Origin: an uncultured delta proteobacterium
GTDB taxonomy: Bacteria > Desulfobacterota > Binatia > UBA9968
DNA: 40,278 nt
Direction of reading: 5' to 3'
NCBI GenBank assembly: GCA_963840855.1
Contig: CAWJBB010000017.1
Coordinates: 1-40,278 of the forward strand
Shown here in pieces: positions 1-25,583 of the stretch. Every line of letters starts with the position of its first letter. The stretch's first letter is position 1. The notes beneath the pieces are model-generated. The model worked only from the letters and a program-made list of their open reading frames with translations. It did no database searches and had not been told where the DNA came from. The position numbers and the translations under genes were made by a program.

Positions 1-60
1 CTTGAAATCTTTGTTCCGGTCAATTTGTAAATTGAAATTCGTACGTGACATGAGGGGGAT

Positions 61-1126
61 ATGAAATACACCCTTAAGGTTATCACAATCGCATTAACAT
101 TGGTGTGGTGTGGGGTCGTCGCCGAAGCGCAAGGCGCCGCCGCCGCCACCCCGGCGGGCTTTGGCAAGACCCTCGATGAGATCGGTAAATTGGCCGAGAA
201 GGAGGGTCGTGTCCGCATTGCCAGCGGCCTGCAAGAAAAGGACGTGCCGAAGGTTCTCAAGAAATTCAACCAAAGGTATCCGGGCATCAAGGTGGAGAAT
301 GCCTACGTGGGCGGGGCGGAAAATGAAAAACTGTTTACCGAGTTGATGGCCGGCCAGACGGATTACGATGCCGTGAACATCCCCTCGGAACTGGTGCCAA
401 GGTACAGAAAGGCAGGACTCCTGGCGGGTCCGTTCGAGTGGAAGATGGTTTCGCCGCAGACGCCGCGGGAACATTTCAGTCCCGACGGCTACTTCGCCGC
501 GGTGGGGTTTATTACTTATGTCATCACTTACAATACATCTCTGGTGTCTTCAGAGAAAGTTCCAAAAGATTGGAGCGCTTGTCTCGATCCCTTATTGGAA
601 GGGAAAACTGGTGGTGGACACCCGGCCCAAAACGTTTACCGCTCTCTATCCGGCGTGGGGAGAGAAAAAAACCATAGAATTTGCCCGCCAACTCAAGGAG
701 AACCAGCCGGTTTGGAAAAGAGGACAAACGGACGCACTGGCGCTCATCGCCAATGGCGAATATTCCATGATGTGCGGCACCTACTATCAATCCGCGCTCA
801 GGATGGTGACGCGCGACCCGCAGACCAAACTGGCCATAGCCTGGCCCCGTGAGGTGCCCGGCCACCTGACGGAAATCTGGTTGGTGCTCAAGGGCGCCAA
901 GTTCCCCAACGCGGCCCTGCTCCTTTCCGGCTGGCTAGCATCCCGGGAAGGCCGGGAGGAATACGACCAGCTGGGAATCGGTTCTGCATTCGATCCGGAA
1001 AGCCGCATAGCAAAAATGATCCAGAAGATAAAAGCCAAGCCAGTCTTTGGCGGATGGCGCGACGACGAACCCGTGATCACGCAAAAGATTGTCGCGACCT
1101 GGGGATTGTCTCCGGAAAAAAGATAG
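61..1126 (+). CDS. ABC transporter SBP (Fe3+/thiamine/polyamine-type), split by one +1 frameshift near 592
   Basis: Signal peptide and AEKEGRVR motif. ORFs 61..852 and 518..1126 join into a full paralog of the next gene (CLDPYWKGKLVVDTRP) if one T of CCCTTATTGG is removed. RBS GAGGGGG. Confidence 0.85.
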
Positions 1127-21368: not shown

Positions 21369-22396
21369 GCTTTTTCCTGACTCTCCATCGAATCTTGCCG
21401 GGCGGATCCCACTATCCGCTCGTGGGCCAGCCAGCAAGCACTGCTGTGATTGGCGCCGACTTCCGCCGATGGCGGGTCTTCCTGGCGACAACGCTCAAGG
21501 GCAAACTCACAACGCTCAGCGAAGCGGCAGCCCTGGTGGGAATCAAAGACCGGCGCGGGTTGACCCGGAATCGGTCTGAGCCGCTCCTTGGCCAAGGTCT
21601 CCAAGCGCGGCACCAACTGCAGTAAGGCAGTCGTATAAGGATGATTGGGCCGCTCCAGGATGTCCGCTACTGTTCCCCGCTCGACGAGCCGTCCGCCGTA
21701 CATGACTTGGGCGGCGTCGCAGGTGGCGGCGACCACGCCAAAATCATGACTGATCATGATGAGCGCCATCCCGGATTCCTCTCTGAGATGATTGAGAAGC
21801 GCCAGGACCTGGGCCTGAACGGTGACATCGAGAGCCGTGGTGGGTTCGTCCGCGATCAATAATTTAGGCTCGCAGGCTATCGCAATGGCAATCATGATGC
21901 GCTGGCGCATGCCGCCGCTGAAGCGGTCGGGAAGATCGTCGTAACGGCGGGCCGGGTCGCCGATCCCAACGCGCTCCATCAGTTCTTGAGCTTTGCGCCT
22001 TGCTTGCGCGCCACCTAATGCGCGCTGAAAGCGCAGGGTCTCTGCAATTTGCTCACCCACCGAGATCATGGGGTTCAACGACGTCAACGGGTCCTGAAAC
22101 ACCATGCCGATCTGCGCCCCACGGACCCGGCGTAATTCAGACTCCGGGAGCTGAAGAAGATTGGTGCCCTCAAACAGCACCTCCCCTGCCAGTTCAACTC
22201 TGTCCAGTGGCCCGAACAGGCGCAGGATCGTGAGCGCGGTTACACTCTTGCCGCTGCCGCTCTCGCCAACGATGCCAACGGCCTCGCGTCGCCCGAGAGA
22301 AAAGGAAACATCGTCGACTGCGCGCAAAATACCCCGTGGCATTACAAAACGCGTGCTCAGGTTTCTCACTTCCAGGAGTGGCGAAAGTGCGTTCAC
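21365..22396 (-). CDS. ABC ATPase (DppD/OppD-like)
   Basis: [28 protein letters not shown] start overlaps the dppC TGA (GTGA). Confidence 0.93.
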
Positions 22397-23298
22397 GCCG
22401 CGGCGCCCCGCAGTTTGGCAAAATGACGTGAAAGCATATTGAGCGCGAGAACCGTCAAGCCGAGCATCAAGCCGGGCATGATCGCCAGCCACCACGCCAC
22501 GGCGAGATAGGGACGGCCACGGGCGATGAGCAGACCCCAGGTCGACTGGGGCGGCTGAACCCCGACCCCAAGAAAGCTCAAGCCGGCTTCCGCAAGCATA
22601 ACGTGGCCGATCTCGATGACCGCCAGCACCGCGATCCGCGGGGCAAGATTGGGTAGGATGTGATACCAGAGCACAGCCCAATCCGTACAGCCGGAGGCGA
22701 TCGCGGCTTCGACGAACAGACAAGCGCGAATGCGCCCGCTTTCGGCACGCACCAGACGGGCAAATACGGGCCAGACCAGAGTGGGCAGGATGATCATCAC
22801 GTTGAGGATGGTCGGCCCGATCACCGTCAGAAAAAAAATCGCCACAAGGAACATGGGCATCGCCGTCTGTGCTTCGGTGAGCCGCATCACCAGGCGATCG
22901 ACCAACCCGCCATAGAAACCTGCCAGCATCCCGAGCGCGACGCCCAAGATCAAGCCGACAAAAGTGCTCGCGACACCGATAATCAAGGTCAAGCGGGCCC
23001 CGGCGATCAGGTTTGACAGCACGTCACGTCCCAACTGGTCCGTGCCAAGTAAATGAAGCCCCCGGCTCGACTCCGAGAACGGCGGCAGCAACCTTGCGGT
23101 AACCATTTGGCTAGTGGAATCATAGGGCGCAAGCTCGCCCCCGGTAACCGCGAACAAGGATACAAGCAGCAGGTAGACAACCCAGAGAAGGACACTGAGG
23201 CCGCCTGTTGAGGCCCACATCGAGTTGATATTCACCACCGGCGCCGGCAACGCCTGTGCCGAAGATCCGGCTTCATGGTTCGGACTATTCATTGCCAC
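22393..23298 (-). CDS. ABC permease (DppC/OppC-like)
   Basis: HLLGTDQLGRD, FVEAAIASG, EAGLSFLGVGVQPP. Confidence 0.93.
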   Translation of the reverse strand: MAMNSPNHEAGSSAQALPAPVVNINSMWASTGGLSVLLWVVYLLLVSLFAVTGGELAPYDSTSQMVTARLLPPFSESSRGLHLLGTDQLGRDVLSNLIAGARLTLIIGVASTFVGLILGVALGMLAGFYGGLVDRLVMRLTEAQTAMPMFLVAIFFLTVIGPTILNVMIILPTLVWPVFARLVRAESGRIRACLFVEAAIASGCTDWAVLWYHILPNLAPRIAVLAVIEIGHVMLAEAGLSFLGVGVQPPQSTWGLLIARGRPYLAVAWWLAIMPGLMLGLTVLALNMLSRHFAKLRGAAA

Positions 23299-23344
23299 TG
23301 ATATTTCATCACTCGAAGCTAGAGAATTTCACCACGAAGTGATT

Positions 23345-23570
23345 CATGATCTTACGCTCGCCCGCAGAAGATGAAAATGGGAGGCAGATGCGGTAAGCAG
23401 GGAGCGGCGCCCCAGCGAAGAGATCGATAAGTGAGTGGCGCGAGAGAGCCCGACACGAAGTGTGATCCGGGACATCCTTCGGCGCCTCAGATTGTCGCCT
23501 CGTCATCTGCCGACGAGAGCACGCGAAGGAGAATCGAATATGCCGTATGTCCCCTGGGTGTGCCGCAAGA
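23345..23570 (+). ncRNA. Putative IS110 bridge RNA (left non-coding end)
   Basis: 245-nt non-coding left end with stems (e.g. CTCGTC/GACGAG 23499-23517). Loop arms CACGAAG (23454-23460) and TCCTTCG (23475-23481) match the left and right sides of the target. Boundaries approximate. Confidence 0.7.
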
Positions 23571-23584
23571 AAGGGGGAGCGTCT

Positions 23585-24355
23585 ATGAGCAAGAAGAACA
23601 GTAGCCCTGCGGGGCTGCAGGCCTTGTATGCGCGCGTGTGCGGGTTGGACCTGCACAAAAAACTGATCGTGGCGTGCGTGCGTATCCTCAATGCGAAGGA
23701 TGGCACGGTGCAGAGCACGCTGCGTAAGTTCGGTACGATGACGGCCGATCTGATAGAGCTGCGCCAGTGGTTGACCGAGCAGGGGGTGACCCACGTGGCG
23801 ATGGAGTCGACGGGGATTTACTGGCAGCCGGTGTTCAACCTGCTCGAAGGCCATTTCAAGCTGTTGCTGATCAACGCCCAGCATCTGAAGAAAGTGCCTG
23901 GGCGAAAGACCGATATGAAGGACGCGGAGTGGATCGCGCAGCTTTTGCAGTGTGGGCTGTTGAGGCCGAGTTTTGTTCCCGACCGCCAGCAGCGCGAGCT
24001 GCGGGATCTGACGCGTCAACAGACCAAGCTGGTGCAGCAGCGAAATGCGGTGGACAACCGCATCCAGAAGGTGTTGGAGACAGCCAACATTAAGCTGGGC
24101 TCGGTAGCCAGTGATGTGATGGGGGCGTCGGGACGCAAGATGATCGAGGCGCTGATCGCTGGAGAGAAAGACGTTACAGTGTTGGCGGATCTGGCCCAGC
24201 GCCAGCTGCGCGGCAAGATCCCCGAATTGCAGCGCGCTTTGGAGGGAGAGCTGACCGAGCATCACCGCTTTTTGCTGCGGCAGTTGCTTGGACAATACGA
24301 CTTTCTCGAAAAGGAGATCGCCAGCGTAAGCGAGCGGTTGGGGGCGGTCCCCCTT
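23585..24355 (+). pseudogene. IS110 recombinase, N-terminal DEDD/RuvC domain and coiled coil only; C-terminal Tnp (serine) domain missing
   Basis: CGLDLHKK, VAMESTGIYWQP, PGRKTDMKDAEWIAQL; AAGGGGGAG RBS. IS110-like sequence stops after SERLGAV where a REP begins. AAAGCAGCCTGA at 24466-24477 may be the original 3' end. Confidence 0.9.
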
Positions 24356-24466
24356 CGTTGCCCGGATAGAGCAAAGCTTAATGCGGGTTTCTTCATTCAC
24401 GCACGCCGTTGCCTCTGCCACGCCACATGACACCTTCCTGGATTCCGCTTCGCTCCATCCAGGCTA
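24356..24466. repeat. Degenerate GTAG-type REP doublet inside the IS110
   Basis: CGTTGCCCGGATAGAGCAAAGCTTAATGCGGG ... TTCCTGGATTCCGCTTCGCTCCATCCAGGCTA, homologous to both halves of 4180-4246. Confidence 0.75.
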
Positions 24467-24504
24467 AAGCAGCCTGAAGCCCACCCCCACCCAAATTTTC
24501 GAAG

Positions 24505-24612
24505 GAGGCACGAAGAACACGAAGGGTTCGGATATTTATACTCTTAAACTTCGTGAACTTCGTGCCTCCTTCGTGGTGAGTCCCCTCTTCTTTGCGCCCT
24601 TTGCGGTTAAAT
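24505..24612. repeat. Remainder of the CACGAAG repeat interrupted by IS110 (first part at 23329-23339)
   Basis: Near-identical to 11861-11962, including spacer TTCGGAT.TTTATACTCTTAAA and tail. Confidence 0.9.
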
Positions 24613-24647
24613 GTCTTCTTCGGTTGCGAGCTACACCGTCCTGGGCT

Positions 24648-25583
24648 TTACGCCAGCCGCATGCGCATATCCAAGACGCGGTAGAAAAGGTCCACAATCG
24701 CATTTGTCAGGACCACAAAAGCTCCGGCCACGATCACCGCGGCCTGCAGCACGGGGAAGTCCTGGCGCGAAGCGGCATGAATCATCAGCTGGCCGATCCC
24801 CGGCCAAGCGAATACCACCTCGATGGCAAAGGCTGCTCCGCCCATCATGCGGACATATTCCCAGCCGATGGCCGTCATCATAGTCACCGCAATATTGCGC
24901 AAAATATGGCGCCAAAGGATCAGCCGGTCAGGCAATCCTTTGCTTCTGGCCACCAGGGCATAGGGCTTAGCCATCTCCTCGAACGTCGCCGAGCGTACCA
25001 ACTGAAATATGCGCCCCCCGTGAACCATCCCCAGGGTTATTGACGGGAGTATCAAACCCTGCCAGCTGGCAAAGCCCGAGGTTGGCAGCGCCCGCAAATT
25101 AACCGAGACAACGACGATTAGAAGCAACCCTAACCAGAAATTAGGAACTGAGAGGGCGACCACCGAGAGAAAATTTCCACTGCGATCTAAAAAAGACTCC
25201 GGGCGCGCTCCCGCCAGGACACCGAGAAAGGAGCCCCCTAGACCGGCCAGAAAAATGCCTAACACCGTTAATAAAATCGTCGCCGGCAGAGCTTCGATGA
25301 CGACGGCCAAGGCGGGCCGGTTTTGCCATAGCGACTGGCCGAAGTCACCGCGAGCGAGGGCGCCAAAATAGGTTATGAACTGCTCACTGAAAGGCCGGTC
25401 GAGGCCGAGTTGTTGCCTGATGCGGGCAATTTCCTGTTCGCTGGCGTCCACGGGAGCCATTACCAAAGCGGGGTCGCCAACGACATGGCCCAAAACAAAA
25501 ATCACCAAAGTCACGAGAAACAGGACAACGAGCCCGTCGCGCAAGCGTCGGAGCGTGAACCCGGCTACCGATTGGAAATCCAA
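24648..25583 (-). CDS. ABC permease (DppB/OppB-like)
   Basis: VGDPA, LGLDRPF, YALVARSKGL, EVVFAWPGIG; TTG start. Confidence 0.93.
   Translation of the reverse strand: MDFQSVAGFTLRRLRDGLVVLFLVTLVIFVLGHVVGDPALVMAPVDASEQEIARIRQQLGLDRPFSEQFITYFGALARGDFGQSLWQNRPALAVVIEALPATILLTVLGIFLAGLGGSFLGVLAGARPESFLDRSGNFLSVVALSVPNFWLGLLLIVVVSVNLRALPTSGFASWQGLILPSITLGMVHGGRIFQLVRSATFEEMAKPYALVARSKGLPDRLILWRHILRNIAVTMMTAIGWEYVRMMGGAAFAIEVVFAWPGIGQLMIHAASRQDFPVLQAAVIVAGAFVVLTNAIVDLFYRVLDMRMRLA

What the first reader, a model, noticed from the sequence alone, without database searches (positions are those of the whole stretch)
23329..24579. IS110 element whose non-coding end appears programmed against the host's own CACGAAG repeat family
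Seen: the element splits one CACGAAG palindrome. The empty site reads CCACGA-AG-GAGG and the predicted circle junction reads TTTTCGA-AG-TGAT, with CGAAG shared at both ends. In the left end, GCCCGA[CACGAAG]TGTGATCCGGGACA[TCCTTCG]GCGCC carries a 7-nt copy of the left target and the reverse complement of CGAAGGA on either side of a small inner stem. Established: IS110 recombinases (IS621) use a bridge RNA whose left guide equals the target top strand and whose right guide is complementary to it, and IS621 targets E. coli REPs. Inference: this is a natural bridge RNA with a probable AG core (IS621 has CT), aimed at a different repeat family with at least five copies in 40 kb. The donor loop is only partly readable (ATTGTCG at 23491 vs donor ATTTTCG).
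Basis: partly seen in the sequence, partly recalled or inferred. Interest (0 to 1): 0.85.

Follow-up and report, generated by a model that had tools for sequence, protein, structure and literature searches.

The report
Defective IS110 element with repeat-aimed guide RNA
This is a broken copy of an RNA-guided (IS110-type) jumping gene whose built-in guide sequence matches the host's own CACGAAG repeat family, which makes it a natural example of an already known mechanism rather than a new one.

Summary
An IS110-group element (window 23340-24507) splits one CACGAAG palindrome, and its left end carries CACGAAG at 23454-23460. Comparison with relatives supports this as a left target guide: 9 of 9 relatives with a variant guide sit behind the matching variant flank, and about two dozen different guides in distant relatives match their own flanks at the same position. 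The AG core is supported, and AG is already known from ISPpu9.

Three details need correcting:
- **Donor guide.** It is CGAAGG-AG at 23524-23531, not ATTGTCG, which is a motif conserved across the family.
- **Right guide.** TCCTTCG has no comparative support. It is no better than chance (510 of 5000 shuffles) and partly lies in a covarying long-range helix.

The window copy lacks the catalytic C-terminal domain and carries a MITE-like 3' segment. Three intact 1550-bp copies and at least 7 complete MITEs lie elsewhere in the genome.

Verdict: a new member of a known kind, of moderate interest.

The parts
23330..23339 (+). Left half of the target (CACCACGA + core AG at 23338-23339), the first unit of a CACGAAG repeat array
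   Evidence: All 4 IS copies in the genome have CCACGAAG directly left of TGATTCATG.
23340..24507 (+). Defective IS110-group element (1168 bp, counting the right-hand AG). Intact copies are 1550 bp.
   Evidence: Positions 1-1047 match the intact copy's 1-1053 at 98.8%. The right end CGAAGGAG is set by the family rule found.
23340..23584 (+). Non-coding left end (245 bp) that holds the guide RNA region
   Evidence: The long left end and short right end fit the IS110 group (Durrant 2024).
23373..23378 (+). GAAAAT, complementary to ATTTTC in the right end (24495-24500): a subterminal inverted repeat. It may also be part of an internal promoter (inference only).
   Evidence: It is found at LE 31-42 in all 15 elements examined, with matching variants (GAAAAC/GTTTTC, GAAAAUAG/CTATTTTC, GAAAAUGG/CCATTTTC). 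No sigma-70 consensus hit.
23429..23435 (+). AAGTGAG just 5' of stem A: the place where distant relatives carry a top-strand (right) target guide. This is a weak candidate here.
   Evidence: L027 has 11 nt complementary to core+RT at this place, L029 and L041 have 6, and L021 has 5. G(U/C)G varies with C(A/G)C of the right flank (4 of 6 against 1 of 17), but only two lineages are involved.
23437..23486 (+). Stem A (GGCGC 23437-23441 with GCGCC 23482-23486), which encloses the target-guide module
   Evidence: helix 1: 90.6% of cells paired and 1 of 5 pairs changed on both sides. One position is unpaired in 7 of 17 sequences.
23453..23462 (+). Left target guide ACACGA + core AG (23453-23460) plus a 2-nt extension TG that equals the first two bases of the element
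   Evidence: The flank matches the guide in 34 of 38 close relatives, and 9 of 9 variant guides have the matching variant flank. The extension equals RD1-2 in 14 of 15 diverse elements.
23469..23553 (+). Long-range helix B (GGGACATCC 23469-23477 with GTATGTCCC 23545-23553). It ties the target-guide and donor-guide modules together and crosses stem A.
   Evidence: helix 2: 82.9% paired and 6 of 9 pairs changed on both sides; the offsets are the same (6-8 and 10-12 nt after the guides) in 12 of 15 elements, although the sequences are unrelated.
23475..23481 (+). It is complementary to the element's own CGAAGGA (donor end and donor guide). Its function is unresolved.
   Evidence: chance level; 46 of 48 unchanged; L100 has TCCTTTG together with CAAAGGAG, the one compensated case among 5 CAAAGGAG elements.
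23491..23497 (+). ATTGTCG, a motif conserved across the family 5' of hairpin C. It is not a donor guide.
   Evidence: T69, G70 and T71 are invariant in alignment A1. The motif does not follow A/G changes in the right-end TTTTC motif.
23499..23517 (+). Hairpin C (CTCGTC / GACGAG)
   Evidence: helix 3: 89.7% paired and 4 of 6 pairs changed on both sides.
23524..23533 (+). Left donor guide CGAAGG + core AG (23524-23531), plus AA, directly after the AGCACG anchor
   Evidence: In 31 of 39 loci the string after the anchor is identical (7-10 nt) to the right end after TTTT(C). Here it equals 24500-24507.
23585..24430 (+). Truncated recombinase gene. It has the DEDD/RuvC-like domain only. Likeness to the intact protein ends near 24386.
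   Evidence: PF01548 only; the intact copy has PF01548 + PF02371.
24350..24466 (+). Segment shared with the ~206-bp MITE family (94.9% to MITE positions 48-164). It replaces about 440 bp of the recombinase gene.
24495..24507 (+). Right end: ATTTTC + left donor arm CGAAGG + core AG
   Evidence: The right end reads C(G/T/A)AAGGAG in 36 of 36 parsed relatives, whatever follows it.
24508..24580 (+). Rest of the repeat: the right half of the target (GCACGAAG AACACGAAG), the loop and the inverted arm. The inverted arm carries 3 extra bases (within cctcc 24565-24569) compared with paralogous copies.

Best explanation
**What it is.** Window 23340-24507 is a non-autonomous copy of a 1550-bp IS110-group insertion sequence. 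It sits at an AG dinucleotide between the first and second units of a REP-like CACGAAG array, in the spacer between two ABC-transporter permease genes.

**How targeting works.** The element family uses an RNA made from the 245-bp left end to choose its sites.
[quoted passage not shown] It would therefore pair with the bottom strand, as the left target guide of IS621 does.
- A second module (UGUCGCC motif, hairpin C, anchor AGCACG, then CGAAGG-AG) does the same for the element's own right end.
- Recombination between AG in the circle junction (CGAAGG-AG-TGATTC) and AG in the site (CCACGA-AG-GCACGAAG) gives the two junctions seen.

**State of this copy.** It keeps both ends and the guide region but has lost the serine-bearing C-terminal domain. 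It could move only with recombinase from one of the three intact copies.

**Shown:** anatomy, copy census, site specificity, guide-flank and guide-end covariation, and helix covariation.
**Inferred:** that the region is made as RNA, the base-pairing with DNA, the AG crossover and mobilisation in trans.
**Open:** how the right arm of the target and of the donor is read.
For: - **Domains.** PF01548 in the window copy. PF01548 + PF02371 in the intact 424-aa protein.
- **Copies.** Three intact copies plus this one, all behind CCACGAAG and ending TTTTCGAAGGAG.
- **Close relatives.** The flank's last 7 nt equal the guide's in 34 of 38. All 9 elements with variant guides have the same variant flank: CAAAGGAG x3, ACACAGAG, CCACAAAG, CCACAGAG x2, CCGCAGAG x2.
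- **Distant relatives (33-55% protein identity).** A same-sense match of 9 nt or more between flank and the homologous left-end position in 44 of 55 loci, against 41 of 306 permuted pairs.
- **Donor guide.** The string after the AGCACG-type anchor equals the right end in 31 of 39 loci.
- **Right boundary.**
  - 47 unoccupied CCACGAAGGCACGAAG sites against 1 with GAG.
  - All four other repeat copies in the window lack GAG.
- **Structure.** Three helices: 86.9% of cells paired, 11 of 20 pairs changed on both sides, and 0 of 500 shuffles reach this.
- **Guide polarity** as in IS621 (Durrant 2024 passages).
- **AG crossover, REP targets and an associated MITE** are shown experimentally for ISPpu9 (PMC12288879 passages).
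Against: - No RNA evidence of its own. Contigs from four RNA-library runs (2 studies) cover the left end, one of them at 100% over LE 37-199. Contigs cannot show transcription, ends or strand, and DNA may be present in such libraries.
- No Rfam family matches.
- The single-sequence fold is no better than shuffles (z -0.48).
- No sigma-70 consensus promoter was found.
- No convincing top-strand guide for the right target arm or right donor arm was found in this subgroup.
- Stem A and helix B cross, so the fold is either a pseudoknot or two alternative states. Stem A has an unpaired position in 7 of 17 sequences.
- 4 of 38 close relatives sit behind a flank that does not match their guide.
- 44 of 92 close loci were not parsed by my pattern and were left out.
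Confidence: 0.85

Rival explanations
1. The element ends at ...TTTTCGAAG (24504). The host site is the rare CCACGA-AG-GAGG variant. UCCU(UCG) at 23475-23481 is the right target guide plus handshake bases. ATTGTCG is the left donor guide.
For: - The intact arm of this palindrome reads CCACGAAGGAGGCACGAAG.
- UCCU would pair with AG+GA and the next UC with the donor's GA, as RTG plus handshake guide do in IS621 (Hiraizumi 2024 passages).
- GAG follows the CNAAG of the right end in 36 of 36 relatives, and TCCTTCG is unchanged in 46 of 48.
- L100 has TCCTTTG together with a TTTTCAAAG end.
Against: - Only 3 unoccupied repeat sites with GAG exist, against 47 canonical ones.
- MITE copies would each need a private host spacer (GCG, AG) that is never seen unoccupied: 0 counts.
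- Partner arms of other occupied palindromes lack GAG.
- It would break the 8-9-nt unit spacing seen in all arrays.
- The family rule 'right end = TTTT + string after the AGCACG anchor' puts GAG inside the element.
- ATTGTCG is conserved whatever the donor end is.
- The UCC of TCCTTCG lies in helix B.
- The 7-mer is at chance level.
Confidence: 0.08
2. The recombinase protein alone picks the site. The copy of the target in the left end is not a guide but a by-product, for example a captured piece of target or a DNA-level site for the protein.
For: - No direct RNA evidence for this element (one search is not decisive).
- No right-arm guide was found.
- The match runs 2 nt past the core into the element's own first bases, so the left-end string equals the integrated junction. 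A copying event could also produce this.
Against: - The matching string always stands at the same place behind a conserved anchor, inside covarying helices. This holds across relatives down to 33% protein identity and with about two dozen different sequences.
- A second string, at the homologous place of a second module, tracks the right end.
- The mechanism is established for the family (Durrant 2024 and Hiraizumi 2024).
Confidence: 0.04
3. The window copy is not just a decayed IS. It is a modular IS-MITE hybrid of the ISPpu9/MITEPpu9 kind, formed by recombination between an IS and a MITE, and still moved as a unit in trans.
For: - Window 24350-24466 is 94.9% identical to MITE positions 48-164, while 23340-24386 is 98.8% identical to the intact IS.
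- Both ends and both left guides are intact.
- Tandem IS-MITE junctions that share one AG exist in relatives: L012, L014, L110 and L141.
- ISPpu9 makes several circle types from combinations of IS and MITE ends.
Against: - Only one such hybrid copy is in the genome.
- A simple internal deletion or replacement would look the same.
- The MITE's donor arms differ from the resident donor guide by 1-4 nt.
Confidence: 0.3

Closest known systems
IS621 (E. coli) and its bridge RNA (Durrant et al. 2024, PMC11208160; Hiraizumi et al. 2024, PMC11208158)
   Same: - DEDD + Tnp-domain recombinase.
- Long left end that encodes the guide, short right end, and no target duplication beyond a shared core dinucleotide.
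- Inserts into REP-type repeats.
[quoted passage not shown]
   Different: - The protein is only distantly alike. The only stretch that passes on its own is in the C-terminal part (E 3.3e-11).
- The core is AG, not CT.
- 6 + 2 nt follow a conserved G anchor, plus a 2-nt extension that matches the partner's right arm.
- The top-strand target guide, where it can be seen in relatives, lies 5' of the stem and not 3' of the left guide.
- A long-range helix joins the two modules and crosses stem A.
- A conserved TTTTC/GAAAA subterminal inverted repeat is present.
- No handshake guides could be placed.
ISPpu9 and MITEPpu9 of Pseudomonas putida KT2440 (PMC12288879)
   Same: - An IS110-family element in REP sequences.
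- Recombination at an AG present at both ends.
- A small non-autonomous partner that shares the IS's end sequences.
- Tandem IS-MITE arrangements that share one AG.
- Copies with a truncated tnp.
   Different: - Different host and different repeat family.
- I did not compare the sequences, because no ISPpu9 sequence was at hand.
- The MITE here shows no sign of an sRNA gene that I tested for.
- Circles were not tested here.
ISPpu10 (bioRxiv 10.64898/2026.03.19.712850, abstract seen)
   Same: An IS110 element whose natural insertions all fall in copies of one conserved, stem-loop-forming intergenic sequence.
   Different: There, the target's stem-loop was shown to add specificity. Here, the role of the palindrome is untested.

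Membership tests
IS110 family, IS110 group | [quoted passage not shown] | tested here: met
   window copy, E 4e-29; intact copy.
IS110 family, IS110 group | C-terminal Tnp domain with the catalytic serine (PF02371) | tested here: not met
   Absent from the window copy. Present in the three intact copies elsewhere in the genome (E 2.4e-18). The family assignment therefore rests on the intact copies, and the window copy is defective.
IS110 family, IS110 group | Long non-coding left end, short right end, no terminal inverted repeats, and no target duplication other than a shared core | tested here: met
   The left end is 245 bp. About 30 bp follow the stop codon. AG stands at both junctions.
IS110 family, IS110 group | Site-specific insertion | tested here: met
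   4 of 4 IS copies and 7 of 9 listed MITE copies lie behind CCACGAAG. 25 of 29 close relatives with the ACACGAAG guide do so too.
Bridge RNA system | Left-end segment that covaries with the target's left arm plus core (left target guide) | tested here: met
Bridge RNA system | Left-end segment that covaries with the donor's left arm plus core (left donor guide) | tested here: met
   across the family. Within the close subgroup the support is partial: 2 of 2 CAAAGGAG guides with a known end have a CAAAGGAG end, but 12 of 34 CGAAGGAG guides face CTAAGGAG or CAAAGGAG ends.
Bridge RNA system | Top-strand guides for the right arms (RTG, RDG) and handshake guides | tested here: inconclusive
   An RTG-like complement lies 5' of stem A in L027 (11 nt), L029, L041 and L021. 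For this subgroup there is only a one-base covariation hint. No RDG was found.
Bridge RNA system | Two stem-loops with internal guide loops, as in IS621 | tested here: inconclusive
   Covarying helices exist, but stem A and helix B cross. No Rfam model matched.
Bridge RNA system | The RNA is made and binds the recombinase; recombination needs it | not testable with these tools
   Only contigs from RNA libraries are available, which cannot show a transcript.

The most novel reading that the evidence does not exclude
This clade's guide RNA may be built differently from the IS621 bridge RNA, in three ways.
- Both left guides run 2 nt past the core into the other partner's right arm, so they match the integrated junctions rather than the substrates. 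This would be a built-in 'handshake' on the bottom strand. Counts: 14 of 15 for the target guide; for the donor guide, 6 of 15 in full and 12 of 15 for the first base; cross-controls 0 of 15.
- The top-strand target guide sits 5' of the stem.
- The target and donor modules are tied by a covarying long-range helix that crosses stem A, giving a pseudoknot.

Also not excluded: the 3 repeat sites that carry an extra GAG may be footprints of excision in a second AG register inside the right end CGA-AG-G-AG.
Probability: 0.3. Interest if true: 0.6.

Novelty: new member of a known kind. Interest (0 to 1): 0.35.

Why it matters
It gives a well-documented natural case, from soil bacteria far from E. 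coli, of an IS110 guide RNA aimed at a host repeat family.

- More than 80 close relatives were fetched. In those that could be read, natural reprogramming of the left target guide can be seen base by base: six guide variants, each with its own flank.
- Such series are useful for learning which positions of a guide can be changed, and for finding recombinases with cores other than CT.
- The corrected anatomy (true right end, true donor guide, helix B) is what anyone would need before testing or reprogramming this element.

The mechanism itself, REP targeting, the AG core and an associated MITE are all already in print.

Tried and rejected
- **Rfam scan** of 22800-25000 at E up to 1: only two chance-level hits, mir-4788 on the palindrome and BcKCsr2.
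- **Single-sequence fold** of the left end: z -0.48, not informative.
- **Promoter scan** of 23250-24650: 0 sigma-70 consensus sites. A possible internal promoter (ATGAAA, 17 nt, TAAGCA/TAATAA in relatives) was seen by eye only.
- **RNA-library contigs**: they cover the left end and gene in 4 runs of 2 studies, but cannot show transcription, strand or ends. Two contigs that end at the same place come from one study.
The GGGACAUCC stretch pairs with 23545-23553 instead.
- **TCCTTCG pairing with the donor guide or end as a family feature:** only 4-nt CCUG/CAGG matches in L023 and L026, none in L019, L029, L030 or L033 (read by eye).
- **Right donor guide:** GAAUC after the donor guide complements GATTC of the element's start here, but nothing comparable stands at that place in relatives.
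- **Shuffle tests of helix B per sequence** are weak.
- **My first coordinates** for the element's end were one base short and were corrected.
- **** failed on a script error and was repeated.
- **My pattern** parsed 48 of 92 close loci. The other 44 (contig ends or divergent left ends) were not examined.
Full report
**What is at the coordinates**

One search shows the left flank ...gaatttcaccacgaag (ending at 23339), then TGATTCATGATC..., and at the right ...CCCAAATTTTCGAAGGAG (ending at 24507). After that come GCACGAAGAACACGAAGGGTTCGG...CTTCGTGAACTTCGTGCCTCCTTCGTGGTGAG.

- The element therefore splits the left arm of a palindrome built from CACGAAG units.
- CACGAAG occurs 27 times in the window, against 5.82 expected (largest of 100 shuffles was 12). 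The copies lie in five clusters plus single copies.
- In the whole genome there are 1293 copies in 7.10 Mb.
- The repeat lies between two genes for ABC-transporter permeases (PF00528), as REP-type repeats often do.

**The element**

- The ORF in the window has only the DEDD domain PF01548.
- The genome holds three longer copies: two on contig C2 and one on C3. They are 98.8% identical to window positions 1-1047 of the element.
- Each is 1550 bp, counting one AG. Each has a 245-bp non-coding left end and a 424-aa protein with PF01548 and PF02371.
- The protein is only distantly like the solved IS621 and ISCro4 recombinases (E about 3e-11; the only stretch that passes on its own is in the C-terminal part).
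- In the window copy, about 440 bp of the gene's 3' half are replaced by a segment that is 94.9% identical to the core of a ~206-bp MITE family.
- That MITE family has 7 near-complete copies, 4 partial copies and 4 fragments in the genome.
- The MITEs keep the first ~41 bp of the left end and a related right end, but have no guide region. Of the 9 copies listed, 7 lie behind CCACGAAG, one behind CCCCGAAG and one behind GATACGAG.

**The left target guide is real**

- All four IS copies lie behind CCACGAAG.
- In ten close relatives from genome records, the left-end string after GAGCCCG follows the flank:
  - L014: flank TTTTCAAAGGAG, string CAAAGGAG.
  - L031: flank CCACAGAG, string ACACAGAG.
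  - L017: flank CCACGAAG, string CCACGAAG.
  - L018 does not match.
- 80 metagenome relatives were added. My pattern parsed 48 of the 92 close loci, and 38 of these had a readable left junction. In 34 of the 38, the last 7 nt of the flank equal those of the string.
- All 9 elements with a variant string have the same variant flank.
- The four exceptions are L018 and L093 (CTACGGAG), L159 (one mismatch) and L110 (which lies behind another element's end).
- In more distant relatives (33-55% protein identity), a string at the homologous place, behind a CCCG/CCUG anchor, equals the left flank. The longest same-sense match is 9 nt or more in 44 of 55 loci, against 41 of 306 permuted pairs.

**The donor guide and the true right end**

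- Across the family, a second module follows: a UGUCGCC motif, a covarying hairpin, an AGCACG-type anchor, and then a string identical to the element's right end after TTTT(C). This holds in 31 of 39 loci.
- Here that string is CGAAGGAG (23524-23531), and the right end reads AAATTTT-CGAAGGAG (24500-24507).
- Both guide strings carry AG at positions 7-8 after their anchor G. The same holds for L030, L033, L026 and L029 (AG), and for other relatives with AA. I therefore take AG as the core.
Independent support:
  - The right end reads C(G/T/A)AAGGAG in 36 of 36 parsed relatives, while the next two bases take 13 different values.
  - Unoccupied CCACGAAGGCACGAAG occurs 47 times in the genome and the GAG version once.
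  - The four other repeat copies in the window all read CACGAAG-G(T)CACGAAG.
  - Partner arms of other occupied palindromes lack GAG.
  - Tandem junctions read ...GGAG|TGATTC.
- The one GAG-bearing arm is the intact arm of this same palindrome. That is what misled the symmetry argument.
- Two more repeat sites with GAG exist on contig C40.
- Because the right end reads CGA-AG-G-AG, excision in the inner AG register would leave exactly GAG. This is a speculation that I could not test.

- ATTGTCG (23491-23497) is conserved in relatives whose ends differ. It does not follow the A/G change in the right-end NTTTTC motif.
- The partner that does follow that change is the left-end GAAAAN motif (23373-23378). 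It is found at LE 31-42 in 15 of 15 elements, with matching variants. This is a subterminal inverted repeat.
- TCCTTCG (23475-23481) is complementary to CGAAGGA, which is the element's own donor arm and donor guide.
Against the corrected site only a 6-mer remains (1902 of 5000).
- It is unchanged in 46 of 48 relatives.
- Its first three bases lie in helix B, GGGACAUCC with GUAUGUCCC at 23545-23553. Helix B is supported by:
  - a compensated change in L014;
  - unrelated but complementary sequences at constant offsets in 12 of 15 diverse elements;
  - 6 of 9 pairs changed on both sides.
- One relative (L100) has TCCTTTG together with CAAAGGAG. Three others with CAAAGGAG keep TCCTTCG, and one has TCGTTCG. 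A donor-directed or intramolecular role is therefore possible but not shown.
- In distant relatives, a complement to core plus right target arm lies just 5' of stem A: L027 with 11 nt, L029 and L041 with 6, and L021 with 5.
- At that place this subgroup has AAG(U/C)GAG. The middle base goes with C(A/G)C in the right flank: 4 of 6 against 1 of 17, with 13 rows without a recognisable unit dropped. Only two lineages carry the C form, so this is a lead and no more.

**Fold**

- On a 17-sequence alignment, stem A, helix B and hairpin C together have 86.9% of cells paired and 11 of 20 pairs changed on both sides. 0 of 500 shuffles reach these values, and slid controls give 34-53% paired.
- Stem A is the weakest: one compensated pair, and one position unpaired in 7 of 17 sequences.
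- Stem A and helix B cross, so the RNA forms either a pseudoknot or two alternative states. I could not decide which.

**An unexpected regularity**

- The two bases after the core in the target guide equal the first two bases of the element in 14 of 15 diverse elements.
- The two bases after the core in the donor guide equal the first two bases of the right flank in 6 of 15 (first base: 12 of 15).
- Crossed comparisons give 0 of 15.
- The left guides thus match the integrated junctions over 10 nt.
- In this subgroup the donor-guide extension (AA) does not fit most flanks.
- The published handshake guides of IS621 act on the top strand, next to the right guides (abstract of PMC13626964). I did not find this bottom-strand version in what I read, but I read only passages and abstracts.

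**What is known**

- Durrant 2024 (passages): IS110 elements insert into REP sequences; bridge RNAs were predicted in 85.7% of IS110 elements catalogued in ISfinder; the target-binding loop covaries with natural targets; structures differ between subgroups.
- ISPpu9 (PMC12288879, passages): REP targets, recombination at AG on both sides, a MITE partner with the IS's end boxes, tandem junctions that share one AG, and a copy with truncated tnp.
- ISPpu10 (abstract): a stem-loop in the target adds specificity.
- Searches made: bridge RNA / IS621 / IS110; IS110, bridge RNA, non-autonomous, MITE, miniature.
- Supplements were closed. The catalogues of Durrant 2024 may already list this clade.

**Verdict**

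The finding is a sound identification of a natural guide-RNA-bearing IS110 element aimed at a host repeat. The left guide and the core are correct. The right boundary, the donor guide and the right guide are wrong or unsupported. The copy in the window is defective. It is a new member of a known kind, and the clade's RNA architecture and its natural series of reprogrammed guides are the parts worth following up.

Noticed in passing
window 24557-24575 (minus strand) and 24565-24569; also genome C40:120324 and C40:230039: The intact arm of the interrupted palindrome carries 3 extra bases (GAG on the repeat's own strand), exactly where an element of this family would insert. It is the only CCACGAAGGAGGCACGAAG in 7.1 Mb, against 47 canonical sites. 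Two more repeat sites with GAG lie on contig C40. These may be footprints of excision in the inner AG register of the right end CGA-AG-G-AG.
   Followed up: partly
genome contigs C30, C4, C45, C50, C67, C7, C79 (complete); C2:16691, C2:131267, C32, C81 (partial): A ~206-bp MITE family keeps the IS's first ~41 bp (terminal hairpin plus GAAAAT) and a related right end (TATTTTC + 7 nt), but has no guide region. It sits in the same CACGAAG sites. Its donor arms differ by 1-4 nt from the resident IS's donor guide. Metagenome relatives with a CAAAGGAG donor guide exist (L100, L111, L124, L151, L168).
   Followed up: partly
window 23373-23378 with 24495-24500; relatives L023, L027, L030, L036, L052, L076: The left-end motif (U)GAAAAU is complementary to the right-end motif ATTTTC(G/A), and the two change together across the family. 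This subterminal inverted repeat is longer and less symmetrically placed than the 2-3-bp one described for the IS110 group.
   Followed up: partly
window 23461-23462 and 23532-23533; 15 diverse relatives: The left target guide runs 2 nt past the core and matches the element's own first two bases (14 of 15). The left donor guide often matches the first bases of the right flank (6 of 15 in full, 12 of 15 for the first base). Crossed controls give 0 of 15.
   Followed up: yes
relatives L019, L033, L041, L047, L060, L069; window about 23357-23369 against 23480-23490: An 8-10-nt same-sense repeat links the segment just after the terminal hairpin of the left end with the segment just after stem A (for example GCACCACGUA twice in L033). 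In this element the likeness is weaker (CGCC..CAGA). Its meaning is unknown.
   Followed up: no
genome C2:17946-19495 (+) and C2:23803-25351 (-), with a partial MITE at C2:16691-16824: Two identical intact IS copies lie in inverted orientation about 4.3 kb apart, next to a truncated MITE. One of them has a right flank that is not a repeat unit (TCCACTTCG). This could be a composite arrangement or an inversion product.
   Followed up: no
L012, L014, L110, L141 (relatives): Head-to-tail IS-MITE or IS-IS junctions share a single AG (...GGAG|TGATTC...). In four relatives (L014, L126, L158, L167) the target guide reads CAAAGGAG, which is the end of a related element. This lineage therefore seems aimed at the right ends of its relatives.
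   Followed up: partly
window 22393-25583: The repeat and the 1.17-kb insertion lie between two permease genes (PF00528) of one ABC-transporter gene row on the minus strand. The insertion may be polar on the downstream genes.
   Followed up: no
record titles of L011-L018, L031, L044: Relatives with 68-94% identical recombinase, mostly in the same type of repeat (L014 sits behind another element's end and L018 behind CTACGGAG), come from assemblies labelled Binatia, delta proteobacterium, Actinomycetes, Chromatiales, Verrucomicrobiia and Acidiferrales. This points to mislabelled bins or transfer of both the element and the repeat family.
   Followed up: no
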